Of a stretch of DNA of 64,000 nt, positions 24,405 through 28,398 are shown in pieces; the stretch's first letter is position 1, and every line of letters begins with the position of its first letter. The stretch covers positions 7,269-71,268 of the forward strand of contig NZ_CAXTEF010000008.1 of the NCBI RefSeq assembly GCF_964243305.1. The letters are read 5' to 3'. This stretch comes from an uncultured Hymenobacter sp. (lineage in GTDB: Bacteria; Bacteroidota; Bacteroidia; Cytophagales; Hymenobacteraceae). The notes beneath the pieces were generated by a model that saw only the letters and a list, made by a program, of their open reading frames with translations, was not told the DNA's origin and ran no database searches. A program made the translations under genes and the position numbers.

Positions 24405-24555
24405 AGATGAGTGCGCAAAAGTCGTGCGAGTCGCCCGACAGCGACTTTCACTGGGCTAGCTGCTACTTAGCTGCCGACCCCATTAAAGACAAAAATGCCG
24501 CTCAGGAGCGGCATTTGGCAGAATGTCAGCCGGGTGGGCAAGCGGCGCACAATCC

Positions 24556-24972
24556 CTACCCCCCCGCCGGCGTACTACCCGGCCGAACGTTTACGTAGTG
24601 CGGGTCGAAGCGAATACCGCCGAAGGCATACAGCATAATGGCGCGGGCATAGCGAAAGGAAAGCGGCGCCAGCAACACCGTCACGACGGCCACTACCACC
24701 GTGTAGACCCACGTATCCGGATTATTGAGCAAGTAATACAGCACCAGGCCCACCGCCAGCACGATGGCGGTCGAAAAGCCGAAGCTGATGTACATCGCAC
24801 CCCAGTAGAAGCCGGTCTCGGGCTCAAGGTGCTGCCCGCACACCGCGCACGCTTCGGGCATCTCGTCGAAATGTCGCACGTTCAGGGCCGACCGGCTAAA
24901 TAGCTGGCCCTGATGGCAGCGCGGGCAGCGCAGGGCCAGCATCGCCAGCCACGATGAGCGGATGGCGGCCAC
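24556..24972 (-). CDS. DUF983 domain protein
   Basis: CPRCHQG..C.VCG..EPETGFYWGAMYISF plus two TM helices. The GTG start overlaps the upstream stop (TAGTG). Confidence 0.85.
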   Translation of the reverse strand: MAAIRSSWLAMLALRCPRCHQGQLFSRSALNVRHFDEMPEACAVCGQHLEPETGFYWGAMYISFGFSTAIVLAVGLVLYYLLNNPDTWVYTVVVAVVTVLLAPLSFRYARAIMLYAFGGIRFDPHYVNVRPGSTPAGG

Positions 24973-25229
24973 TAGCTGCGACCCTTTTTGGCGGCGTGGC
25001 TGCGCCGGTACCAGAAGTAGCCGATGGCGCCCATCAGCAGATACGGCACGCTCATCATGTACACGATGCCCCGGTTGAGACCGGTCACGTCGTAGTCGTC
25101 TTTCTCCTGGCGGGCGGCCTCGACCTGGCTTTTGCACATCACGCACTGCGCTCTGGCTCCTAGCGGAGCAAAGCTCGTCAGCAGGCCCAGCAGCAGGGCA
25201 AACAGGCTGATTTTAAGTTGCTTTTTCAT
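24972..25229 (-). CDS. Small exported membrane-anchored protein with CxxC (AQCVMC)
   Basis: Signal peptide ending ARA-Q, then CVMC, GLNRGIVYMM..PY and a C-terminal TM with a basic tail. Confidence 0.8.
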   Translation of the reverse strand: MKKQLKISLFALLLGLLTSFAPLGARAQCVMCKSQVEAARQEKDDYDVTGLNRGIVYMMSVPYLLMGAIGYFWYRRSHAAKKGRS

Positions 25230-25288
25230 ATAAAATACAACGCCGGATAATGGGTAAAGTTTCTTTTGCGCCGCGGACTTTCACCGCG

Positions 25289-25858
25289 CTACGTGTAGTA
25301 GGGCGAAATCATAAAGTACACGACTACGCCCGTCACCGATACGTAGAGCCAGACCGGGAACGTCCAGCGGGCAATGCGCTTGTGCTTGGTGTATTGCCCA
25401 GTGAGAGCGAAGTAGAGTGTGAACAACACCAGCCCCACCGTTACCACGGCCAGGCTGATGTGGCTCAGCAGCAGCAGAAAGTAAACCAGCCGGCTGAGCC
25501 CTACCCCCCCGAAATGGGTCGAAGCCGTCTGGGAGTGGTACGTCACGTAGGCGACCAGAAACATCGCCCCCAACAGAAAAGCGGTTCCCATCATGGCGCG
25601 GTGCCGCAGCACCTGCCCCTGCCGGATGAAGTAGTAGCCCAGCACCAGCGCCCCGGCGGTCAGCGAGTTAATCAGGGCGATGACCTTGGGCAGAAACTTC
25701 ACTTCCAGACCCGGCACCTTGAGCAGGCCGGGGAAAAAGTAGAGCATTGCTACCAGCAGCGGCACCACGGCGCCGAGCGCGGCCAGGATAATCTTGTACT
25801 TGGTGTAGTCGCCGGGCTCCAGCACCGGCGGGTGCAGCGTCTCAGTTGTCGTGGTCAT
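25289..25858 (-). CDS. DUF420 domain membrane protein
   Basis: LPKVIALINS, HRAMM, YVTYH, HISLA and HKRIARWTFPVWLYVSVTGVVVY. ATG at 25858. Confidence 0.9.
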   Translation of the reverse strand: MTTTTETLHPPVLEPGDYTKYKIILAALGAVVPLLVAMLYFFPGLLKVPGLEVKFLPKVIALINSLTAGALVLGYYFIRQGQVLRHRAMMGTAFLLGAMFLVAYVTYHSQTASTHFGGVGLSRLVYFLLLLSHISLAVVTVGLVLFTLYFALTGQYTKHKRIARWTFPVWLYVSVTGVVVYFMISPYYT

Positions 25859-26528
25859 AAGAATAAAGCAAAACGTCAATCTCCACCAGCAGCCGGTCGA
25901 TTTCGCGCCCATCGCGCCCGTCGTACACGCCGCGCAGGTGCCGGTTGCGGTCGAGCAGCAACAGGCGGCCCGGGGCGGGCGGCACCGTCACGGGGTGGCC
26001 CTGAATGGTGCGGTGGTAGGGCACGTCGTAGCGGTACTCGTCGTGGTAGAGCGTTCGCATCGTGCCGGCGGGGCCAGCGAGGAAAAACCACTTGCCCGCT
26101 ACCGTGCCATACTGCTCGGCCAGCTTCGGTAGTGTAACCGCCGGCTGCGGCCCAGGGTTCAGCACAAAGCTGAGCACGCGCACCCGCGGCTCCTGCCGGT
26201 ATTTTTCCTGCACCCGCAGCAGTTGCCGGGCCGCCAGGGCGCTCGGCTCATCGGCAGCGTAGAACTGCGCCACCTGCACCCCCCCAGCTAGCTCAGCCGA
26301 GCGGAACGTGCGCCCGGCCGACGACAGCAGCTGGAAGGGCCGGATTTGGTGGAAAACAGTATCGCGCTGCCACGCCTGTTTTCCGCCCGTCACGCGCGTG
26401 GAGTCCACACGGTCGGGCAACAGGAATGGCAGCGCGTAATGGTTGGTGCCGAAGTTATTCAGGAACAGAAAGGCCAGCACCGGCACCAGCAGCAGCAGCC
26501 CCAGCAGCAGGGTTTGGCGGGGCCGCAT
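25842..26528 (-). CDS. SCO/SenC-like thioredoxin-fold protein lacking the CxxxC motif
   Basis: N-terminal TM and SCO-type C-terminus (KWFFLAG, LLLLDRNRHLRGVYDG..EIDRL). Located in the cox cluster and contains no Cys. Confidence 0.75.
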   Translation of the reverse strand: MRPRQTLLLGLLLLVPVLAFLFLNNFGTNHYALPFLLPDRVDSTRVTGGKQAWQRDTVFHQIRPFQLLSSAGRTFRSAELAGGVQVAQFYAADEPSALAARQLLRVQEKYRQEPRVRVLSFVLNPGPQPAVTLPKLAEQYGTVAGKWFFLAGPAGTMRTLYHDEYRYDVPYHRTIQGHPVTVPPAPGRLLLLDRNRHLRGVYDGRDGREIDRLLVEIDVLLYSYDHDN

Positions 26529-27810: not shown

Positions 27811-28398
27811 TCAGTGGTTCAAAAGTAGGAACAAATACAAGTACCACCAAAGGCCGCCCAGGAAATGCCAGTAGATGGTGGCATTGCCGATGGAGAGTAA
27901 CGAGCGGGAATGTACTTGATACTTAAGGCTTCGCAAGAGCACTACGGCGATAAACACGAGGCCCGTGACGAGGTGAAAAGCGTGCACGCCCATGAGCACG
28001 TACACGAACGAGCCGGACGGATTGGCGTCGCTGCCCCCGAAGAATGTACGGCCCGCTACCATCTCGCTCCACACGCCCACCTGCCCGACCAGAAACGCCA
28101 GGCCCAGCAGCAAGGTTAGCCCCAGACCCAGATTTACGCGCTTTACCTCGTCTTTGCGAGCCGAGAAATAAGCCCACTGCACGGCGGCGCTGCTCAGGGC
28201 AATCAGCAATGAGTTATACAGCAGGCTGGCAGGCAGGTCGAACTCGCGCCAGTTGCCTTCGTCGCGGCGCACGATGTAGCCGCTGGTGAAGGCGGCGAAC
28301 ATCATGATAATACTGAAAATAAGCAAAATAAGCACCACCCGCTTGGGGTGAGTGCCGGTGCCGAGCTGCGGCTCGGCGCTGATGTCGGACGGCGTCAT
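27811..28398 (-). CDS. Cytochrome c oxidase subunit III-family protein (short half, CoxO-like)
   Basis: IMMFAAFTSGYIVRR, SFVYVLMGVHAFHL and YWHFLGGLW. Confidence 0.9.
   Translation of the reverse strand: MTPSDISAEPQLGTGTHPKRVVLILLIFSIIMMFAAFTSGYIVRRDEGNWREFDLPASLLYNSLLIALSSAAVQWAYFSARKDEVKRVNLGLGLTLLLGLAFLVGQVGVWSEMVAGRTFFGGSDANPSGSFVYVLMGVHAFHLVTGLVFIAVVLLRSLKYQVHSRSLLSIGNATIYWHFLGGLWWYLYLFLLLNH

What the first reader, a model, noticed from the sequence alone, without database searches (positions are those of the whole stretch)
24556..25858. DUF420 / CVMC mini-protein / DUF983: candidate undescribed copper or haem assembly module
Seen: three small genes follow the Cys-less SCO. DUF420 overlaps the SCO gene by 17 nt, and the last two are coupled by TAGTG. 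The 85-aa protein exposes C-V-M-C right after its signal cleavage site and is anchored by a C-terminal TM. DUF420 has several intramembrane His. DUF983 has two CxxC pairs. Established: Cys and Met are Cu(I) ligands. Inference: the mini-protein may supply in trans the thiols missing from SCO (a split SCO), with DUF420 and DUF983 handling metal or haem delivery to the aa3 oxidase.
Basis: inference. Interest (0 to 1): 0.62.

Follow-up and report, generated by a model that had tools for sequence, protein, structure and literature searches.

The report
Oxidase-assembly genes with unnamed CxxC mini-protein
The three small genes close a Hymenobacter cytochrome c oxidase operon: one is the known assembly factor CtaM, one is an unannotated membrane mini-protein with an invariant two-cysteine tip that accompanies CtaM throughout aerobic Bacteroidia, and one is a DUF983 zinc-ribbon membrane protein; the 'split SCO' idea does not hold.

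Summary

- **DUF420:** this is not undescribed. It is CtaM/YozB, a published aa3/caa3 oxidase assembly factor.
- **Mini-protein:** the 85-aa protein has no Pfam or NCBIfam model, but it belongs to a large family (1061 cluster representatives).
  - Both cysteines are invariant. Met is kept in 89%.
  - In a 300-genome phylum sample, it occurs in 64 of 75 Bacteroidia genomes. These are exactly the genomes that carry DUF420.
  - It lies directly next to DUF420 in 45 of 72 genomes.
- **Split SCO refuted:** the SCO gene upstream is canonical (CxxxC plus His) in 14 of 20 related loci. This Hymenobacter also has a canonical SCO elsewhere.
- **Genome gaps:** the genome lacks PCuAC, Cox11, Caa3_CtaG, Surf1 and YtkA.

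Best reading: the mini-protein is a periplasm-facing copper- or thiol-handling partner of CtaM and Sco. DUF983 is linked more loosely.

Earlier agents of this scan found the same mini-protein family on other DNA (e1-701400, e1-737377, e1-2981980). I found no paper describing it.

The parts
25289..25858 (-). ctaM (DUF420/YozB family), 189 aa, 5 predicted TM helices. Conserved residues: H86, H133, H159, and H108 less strictly.
   Evidence: Pfam PF04238 E=3.7e-42. Single copy in the genome. AF2 gives five helices. Conservation measured over 47 homologues. Some sources name homologues 'YozB'.
24972..25229 (-). Unannotated 85-aa mini-protein: cleavable signal peptide (ARA|Q), N-terminal QCVMCK tip on a short helix, one C-terminal TM helix (GLNxGIxYxMxxPY...WYR) and a basic cytoplasmic tail.
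   Evidence: No Pfam or NCBIfam hit. 175 close homologues, all 'hypothetical'. 1061 cluster representatives. Invariant C29, C32, N52, P62. Motif statistics. AF2 model.
24556..24972 (-). DUF983 protein, 138 aa from a GTG start: a cytoplasmic Cys4 zinc-ribbon-like N-terminus (CPRC...CAVC) followed by two TM helices.
   Evidence: Pfam PF06170, 35.2 bits. Weak TIGR04104 cxxc_20_cxxc hit. Invariant C16, C19, C42, C45. The start overlaps the mini-protein stop.
25842..26528 (-). Cys-less SCO-like protein (context, upstream gene). It is a degenerate orthologue of the canonical operon SCO found in other Bacteroidia.
   Evidence: phmmer against B. subtilis Sco 1xzo, E=0.005. Alignment with canonical operon SCOs shows loss of the CxxxC and the His.
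24493..24516 (-). Intrinsic-terminator-like hairpin followed by a T-run, marking the end of the operon.
   Evidence: 10 pairs, AAATGCCGCTCCTGAGCGGCATTT followed by TTGTCTTT.

Best explanation
The region is the tail of the ACIII-caa3 oxidase operon (cox genes, ctaA, ctaB, coxIII, coxIV, SCO-like, ctaM, mini-protein, DUF983, terminator).

- DUF420 is CtaM, a membrane assembly factor needed late in the maturation of haem-a oxidases.
- The 85-aa gene encodes an undescribed, conserved partner. After signal-peptide cleavage its N-terminal QCxMC tip sits in the periplasm on a short helix, about 20 residues above a single membrane anchor.
- I infer that this Cys-x-Met-Cys site binds Cu(I), or exchanges thiols and copper, next to CtaM and Sco. 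It would pass copper to the oxidase copper centres. In these bacteria it would fill the role played elsewhere by PCuAC/CtaK or Cox11, which this genome lacks.
- DUF983 presents four cytoplasmic cysteines on a two-helix membrane anchor. It is a looser accessory, translationally coupled to the mini-protein only in Hymenobacter, some other Cytophagales and one further family.

Shown: gene structure, family membership of DUF420 and DUF983, conservation, synteny and co-occurrence.
Inferred: topology, copper or thiol chemistry, and the physical partnership with CtaM.
For: - Operon anatomy and coupling.
- DUF420 is CtaM (PMC4958251, PMC9145763). B. subtilis ctaM mutants are copper-sensitive, and CtaM is proposed to act in copper trafficking to the oxidases (PMC13344008).
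- Mini-protein motif in 144 cluster representatives: CxxC 144/144, Q before the first Cys 134/144, Met 128/144.
- Phyletic pattern: in 75 Bacteroidia genomes, the same 64 have both the mini-protein and DUF420, and the same 11 have neither.
- Synteny: the mini-protein lies directly beside DUF420 in 45 of 72 genomes, and 2-10 kb away on the same strand in 5 more.
- Divergent 'ACPxCK' forms sit directly after DUF420 in other classes of the phylum. In one family the order is coxIV, mini-protein, SCO.
- The genome (99.6% complete) has no PCuAC, Cox11, Caa3_CtaG, Surf1 or YtkA.
- AF2 places the CxxC on a helix N-terminal to a confident TM helix.
Against: - There is no biochemical or genetic evidence for the mini-protein.
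- Co-occurrence with DUF420 also tracks aerobic respiration in general, and related genomes are not independent.
- In 20 of 72 genomes, mostly one family, the gene is unlinked from cox genes and often sits beside typA/bipA.
- Many genomes outside Bacteroidia have DUF420 without a detectable mini-protein, so CtaM does not need it universally.
- The Met is not kept in the divergent forms (CPAC, CPNC). That fits a thiol-redox CPxC motif as well as it fits a copper site.
- DUF983 is unlinked in most families.
Confidence: 0.45

Rival explanations
1. The mini-protein is a membrane-anchored thiol:disulfide oxidoreductase (a miniature CcmH/TlpA-like reductant). It would keep the CuA-site cysteines of subunit II, or those of Sco, reduced rather than carrying copper itself.
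For: - A CxxC at the N-terminus of a helix, often CPxC (24/144 in Bacteroidia; CPAC and CPNC in the divergent forms), is typical of redox motifs.
- It is periplasmic and lies beside Sco.
- Unverified notes from this scan report CxxU/UxxU selenocysteine versions in other phyla (e1-4814942, e1-2786166, e1-1068560). If true, they would favour redox chemistry.
Against: - It has no thioredoxin or CcmH fold and no Pfam hit to CcmH or redoxins at E<=0.1.
- A roughly 20-residue ectodomain has no evident way to be recycled.
- The Met between the cysteines is conserved in 89% of Bacteroidia forms, which suggests a metal ligand.
- My pattern scans of species-representative genomes found no QCxMU form.
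Confidence: 0.25
2. The mini-protein, and perhaps DUF983, is a small structural subunit of the caa3 oxidase or of the ACIII-caa3 supercomplex, not an assembly factor.
For: - It is encoded in the oxidase operon, and in one family it sits directly after coxIV.
- Small single-TM subunits are common in oxidases.
Against: - No chain in the PDB matches the mini-protein profile or the DUF983 profile. This includes the F. johnsoniae ACIII-aa3 entry, although chains of unknown residues are not searched.
- Its usual neighbours are the assembly genes Sco and CtaM, not the structural genes.
- An invariant, exposed CxxC is unusual for a purely structural helix.
- hhalign of DUF983 against coxIV gives probability 0.5%.
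Confidence: 0.15
3. One reading: the mini-protein supplies in trans the thiols that the Cys-less SCO has lost.
For: In this window a Cys-less SCO-like gene lies two genes upstream of a CxxC protein.
Against: - 14 of 20 related loci have a canonical CxxxC+His SCO next to DUF420 and the mini-protein.
- The mini-protein family is far older and wider than the Cys-less SCO, which was seen only in Hymenobacter.
- This genome has a canonical SCO elsewhere.
Confidence: 0.03
4. The CxxCK tip is an atypical haem c attachment site, making the mini-protein a tiny membrane-anchored cytochrome.
For: The window protein reads CVMCK, and CXXCK is a known haem c motif in NrfA (my own knowledge).
Against: Lys follows the second Cys in only 82 of 144 representatives (Arg in 44, others in 18). 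There is no His in the ectodomain and no dedicated lyase nearby.
Confidence: 0.02

Closest known systems
Sco (YpmQ) + CtaM (YozB, DUF420) oxidase assembly factors of Bacillus subtilis and Staphylococcus aureus
   Same: The same DUF420 family, well above the Pfam cut-off. It is co-localised with ctaA, ctaB and cox genes, and a Sco-family gene is adjacent.
   Different: In Bacteroidia ctaM is followed by an extra SP-QCxMC-TM mini-protein that the Firmicutes literature does not mention. Here the operon SCO has lost its cysteines, and CtaK and Caa3_CtaG are absent.
PCuAC / PcuC / PccA, and CtaK (YtkA): the second periplasmic copper chaperone that works with Sco
   Same: A small, extracytoplasmic, membrane-associated protein encoded beside Sco and oxidase genes. 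It is a plausible Cu(I) donor, and it is present in a genome that lacks PCuAC and YtkA.
   Different: No sequence or fold similarity. It lacks the cupredoxin-like domain and the H(M)X10MX21HXM motif. Its candidate ligands are two Cys and one Met on a roughly 20-residue helix.
CcmH / TlpA-type periplasmic thiol:disulfide oxidoreductases
   Same: A signal peptide is followed by a CxxC at the start of a helix, the protein is membrane-anchored, and it serves the maturation of a respiratory cofactor site.
   Different: It is much shorter, with no three-helix CcmH domain or thioredoxin fold and no Pfam match. It is linked to Sco and CtaM rather than to cytochrome c maturation genes.
DUF983 (PF06170) genes in alphaproteobacterial COX operons
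   Same: The same Pfam family: Cys4 followed by two TM helices, lying within a cytochrome oxidase operon.
   Different: Here it is translationally coupled to the mini-protein. In most Bacteroidia it is unlinked from cox. The published 'COX4-like' label is not supported by profile comparison (probability 0.5%).

Membership tests
CtaM / DUF420 (PF04238) | Match to the family profile above the curated cut-off | tested here: met
   144.1 bits against a cut-off of 30.5, full profile 1-130.
CtaM / DUF420 (PF04238) | Integral membrane protein with 4-5 TM helices | tested here: met
   AF2 gives five helices: 19-41, 56-79, 83-110, 121-153 and 160-187. The model is only moderate (pLDDT 67).
CtaM / DUF420 (PF04238) | Co-occurrence and co-localisation with haem A synthesis and aa3-type oxidase genes | tested here: met
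   It lies in one operon with ctaA, ctaB and coxI-IV. The same holds in related loci.
CtaM / DUF420 (PF04238) | Required for aa3/caa3 oxidase activity | not testable with these tools
   Needs a knockout and an oxidase assay.
SCO1/SenC (PF02630), upstream gene | Thioredoxin-like domain with CxxxC and a distal His that bind copper | tested here: not met
   No Pfam hit. Zero Cys. The aligned positions read AADEPSA and NPGP. The copy on contig C37 does meet the feature.
DUF983 (PF06170) | Profile match above the cut-off, with two CxxC pairs followed by two TM helices | tested here: met
   35.2 bits against 22.6. C16, C19, C42 and C45 are invariant in 14 homologues.
PCuAC (PF04314) | Cupredoxin-like fold with the H(M)X10MX21HXM copper motif | tested here: not met
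   No Pfam hit for the mini-protein. There is no His in the ectodomain. The family is not found anywhere in the genome.
CcmH (LRCxxC three-helix domain) | Profile match and a periplasmic domain of about 90 aa | tested here: not met
   No Pfam family at E<=0.1. The ectodomain is only about 22 residues.
c-type haem attachment (CXXCH / CXXCK) | Invariant His or Lys after the second Cys | tested here: not met
   K 82, R 44 and other residues 18 of 144.
Unnamed SP-CxxC-TM cox-operon mini-protein family (no database model) | Signal peptide, CxxC at the mature N-terminus, one C-terminal TM helix, and a position next to DUF420, Sco or cox genes | tested here: met

The most novel reading that the evidence does not exclude
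DUF983, CtaM and the mini-protein form a three-part copper relay across the membrane that replaces Cox11/PCuAC in Bacteroidia. In this model cytoplasmic Cu(I) is held by the Cys4 head of DUF983. It passes through CtaM, which appears to be a remote homologue of oxidase subunit III carrying histidines at the cytoplasmic face, mid-membrane and periplasmic face. The periplasmic QCxMC tip then takes it up for insertion into CuB and/or CuA.
Probability: 0.12. Interest if true: 0.8.

Novelty: new variant of a known kind. Interest (0 to 1): 0.5.

Why it matters
How copper reaches the CuB and CuA centres is unsettled outside Proteobacteria and Bacillus, and the molecular role of CtaM is still unknown. 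A small protein with invariant cysteines, universally conserved with ctaM in aerobic Bacteroidia and sitting beside it, gives a concrete and testable partner. Flavobacterium johnsoniae already has tools for oxidase genetics.

The finding also exposes an annotation gap. A family of more than 1000 sequence clusters has no Pfam or NCBIfam model. The hint that CtaM is related to subunit III suggests a way CtaM might dock on subunit I during assembly.

Tried and rejected
- **Split SCO:** rejected by the co-occurrence test and by the canonical SCO on contig C37.
- **Haem CXXCK site:** rejected by the motif statistics.
- **Solved structures:** no PDB chain matches the mini-protein profile or the DUF983 profile.
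- **The search for related loci with the diverse alignment:** failed because no stretch was conserved enough.
- **Selenocysteine (QCxMU) versions:** two DNA pattern scans of genome contigs gave zero hits and one chance hit inside an ABC-transporter gene. The three TGA-containing matches have the TGA outside the motif.
- **Gene context in the family where the mini-protein is unlinked from cox:** only housekeeping neighbours (typA/bipA, meaB-like, a T9SS-tail protein), which are uninformative.
- **DUF983 as 'COX4-like':** hhalign probability 0.5%.
- **Spurious hit:** the 1427-aa hit P0131 is a eukaryote-like repeat protein and a false positive.
- **Literature:** searches for a description of the mini-protein found nothing.

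Full report
**Observation.** The window comes from a Hymenobacter genome: close homologues of the 85-aa protein and of the DUF420 protein are all from Hymenobacter.

On the minus strand a long operon runs from the alternative complex III genes to a terminator hairpin at 24516..24493. The genes after ACIII are, in order:
- coxII and coxI
- ctaA and ctaB
- two COX3 genes and coxIV
- a 228-aa SCO-like gene (26528..25842)
- DUF420 (25858..25289)
- an 85-aa ORF (25229..24972)
- DUF983 (24972..24556)

- The DUF420 ATG at 25858 overlaps the SCO-like stop by 17 nt.
- The DUF983 GTG shares a base with the TAG of the 85-aa ORF (TAGTG).
- The 85-aa protein reads signal peptide, ARA|QCVMCK, helix, TM, basic tail.
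- DUF983 has CPRC and CAVC.
- DUF420 has three nearly invariant histidines, H86, H133 and H159, plus H108.

**What the parts are.**

*DUF420.* The protein matches PF04238 over the whole profile (E=3.7e-42). This family is CtaM/YozB.
- It is required for active aa3 and caa3 oxidases in S. aureus and B. subtilis, but not for haem A synthesis (PMC4958251, PMC9145763).
- In 2026 it was tied to copper trafficking, because ctaM mutants are copper-sensitive (PMC13344008).
- So this gene is a described assembly factor.

*DUF983.* The protein passes its Pfam cut-off. Its four cysteines are invariant. It has no signal peptide, so the Cys4 head should be cytoplasmic, followed by two TM helices (inference from sequence). 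DUF983 genes have been noted in alphaproteobacterial COX operons (PMC4013037, PMC10411912).

*SCO-like protein.* It has no Pfam hit and no cysteine. It aligns weakly to B. subtilis Sco and clearly to the operon SCOs of other Bacteroidia.

**The mini-protein.** It has no Pfam or NCBIfam model. All named homologues are 'hypothetical protein'.

A profile search of 1.8 billion cluster representatives found 1061 members at E<=0.001 and 290 at E<=1e-10. Among 144 representatives:

| Feature | Count |
|---|---|
| CxxC present | 144 |
| Gln before the first Cys | 134 |
| Met at the third motif position | 128 |
| Lys or Arg after the second Cys | 126 |
| Exactly two Cys in the mature protein | 130 |

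Asn52 and Pro62 in the membrane anchor are also invariant. AlphaFold2 puts the motif on a helix ahead of a confident TM helix. The -3/-1 residues (A/S/G) fit signal peptidase I. The invariant Gln at -1 of the Cys does not fit a lipobox (sequence plus general knowledge). The QCxMC tip is therefore expected at the mature N-terminus, in the periplasm.

**Distribution and synteny.** I sampled 300 genomes of the phylum.
- The mini-protein was found in 72 genomes and DUF420 in 163.
- Among the 75 genomes of the same class, the same 64 have both genes and the same 11 have neither.
- The mini-protein lies directly beside DUF420 in 45 of the 72 genomes. One of these is in convergent orientation.
- In 5 genomes it lies 2-10 kb away on the same strand. 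In two of these, susC/D-like genes are inserted between the two genes.
- In 2 genomes the order is coxIV, mini-protein, SCO.
- In 20 genomes, mostly one family, it is unlinked and often sits next to typA/bipA.
- Divergent forms with an 'ACPxCK' tip follow DUF420 directly in other classes.
- DUF983 follows the mini-protein only in Hymenobacter, part of the same order and one other family. It stays with the mini-protein when both are separated from ctaM. In most families DUF983 is elsewhere in the genome.

I aligned the SCO genes next to DUF420 and the mini-protein in 20 other loci:
- 14 are canonical (FFFTxCPxICP...H).
- One, the other Hymenobacter, is Cys-less.
- Four Cytophagales copies are truncated.

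This genome also has a canonical SCO (CPGIC...H), followed by a cytochrome c gene, on contig C37. The mini-protein is therefore not a compensation for the Cys-less SCO.

**Mechanism.** The genome is 99.6% complete and lacks PCuAC, Cox11, Caa3_CtaG, Surf1 and YtkA/CtaK. Its recognisable oxidase toolkit is CtaA, CtaB, Sco and CtaM. This leaves open who delivers the second copper to CuA and who serves CuB.

A periplasm-facing Cys-x-Met-Cys site tethered beside CtaM and Sco is a natural candidate for a Cu(I) relay. I give this about 0.45. The rivals are:
- a thiol-reductase role, about 0.25; the CPxC variants fit it;
- a structural-subunit role, about 0.15;
- a haem CXXCK site, made unlikely by the motif statistics.

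None of these is shown. Only conservation, topology and genomic linkage are.

**Side result.** The AF2 model of CtaM is weak (pLDDT 67). Its best PDB matches are nevertheless almost all oxidase subunit III chains (E 0.03-0.5).

Profile-profile comparison of 47 DUF420 sequences with 45 short COX3 sequences from the same operons gives probability 94.6% (P=7e-8) over 144 columns. DUF420 H133 aligns to a COX3 histidine. Ten control pairs of unrelated membrane families give at most 1.6%. This suggests that CtaM is a remote subunit III relative. The literature instead proposes a link to CtaA (PMC8239418).

**Earlier notes of this scan.**
- The same mini-protein family was already reported on other DNA (e1-701400, e1-737377, e1-2981980). 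My results agree with those notes.
- Three other notes claim selenocysteine versions in other phyla. I could not confirm this. Two pattern scans for QCxMU found nothing real.
- I found no paper that describes the family.

**Verdict.** It is partly wrong: DUF420 is known, and the split-SCO idea is refuted.

Noticed in passing
window 25289-25858 (-) versus 27811-28398 (-): DUF420/CtaM appears to be a remote homologue of haem-copper oxidase subunit III. Foldseek top hits are nearly all COX3 chains, though weak. hhalign of the DUF420 profile against the short-COX3 profile gives probability 94.6% (P=7e-8) over 144 columns, and controls give at most 1.6%. The literature proposes a CtaA relationship instead.
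   Followed up: partly
window 25842-26528 (-); L007, L010, L011, L020, L025: The operon-encoded SCO has degenerated more than once in Cytophagales. It is full-length but Cys-less in Hymenobacter and truncated to about 140-180 aa in four other genera. Other Bacteroidia keep CxxxC plus His.
   Followed up: partly
L001 1339-2498 (G000 contig C37): A canonical SCO (FFFATCPGICP...SHTIDPEHD) is followed directly by a small cytochrome c (CSGCH). This is likely the working CuA chaperone of this genome.
   Followed up: partly
whole genome G000: No PCuAC, Cox11-type CtaG, Caa3_CtaG, Surf1 or YtkA/CtaK was detected in a genome that is 99.6% complete.
   Followed up: yes
L048 7118-12102, L049 8050-13201: In two genomes of one family, susC/susD-like outer-membrane genes are inserted between ctaM and the pair formed by the mini-protein and DUF983. 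The pair stays intact.
   Followed up: no
L067 2240-2473 (-), L070 2495-2725 (-), L061 2860-3171 (+): Other classes of the phylum have divergent mini-proteins with an 'ACPxCK(D/E)' tip and a different anchor motif. These lie directly after DUF420 and have no Met in the motif.
   Followed up: partly
L012 924-1833 (G143): In one genome the mini-protein gene lies convergent to ctaM instead of co-directional.
   Followed up: no
window 24556-24972 (-): The published 'COX4-like' description of DUF983 is not supported by profile comparison with the coxIV of these operons (hhalign probability 0.5%). No PDB chain matches the DUF983 profile.
   Followed up: partly
G155 (other Hymenobacter): The sister Hymenobacter genome has three DUF983 paralogues, and several Flavobacteriaceae genomes have 2-4 copies. 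The family is therefore not restricted to the cox operon.
   Followed up: no
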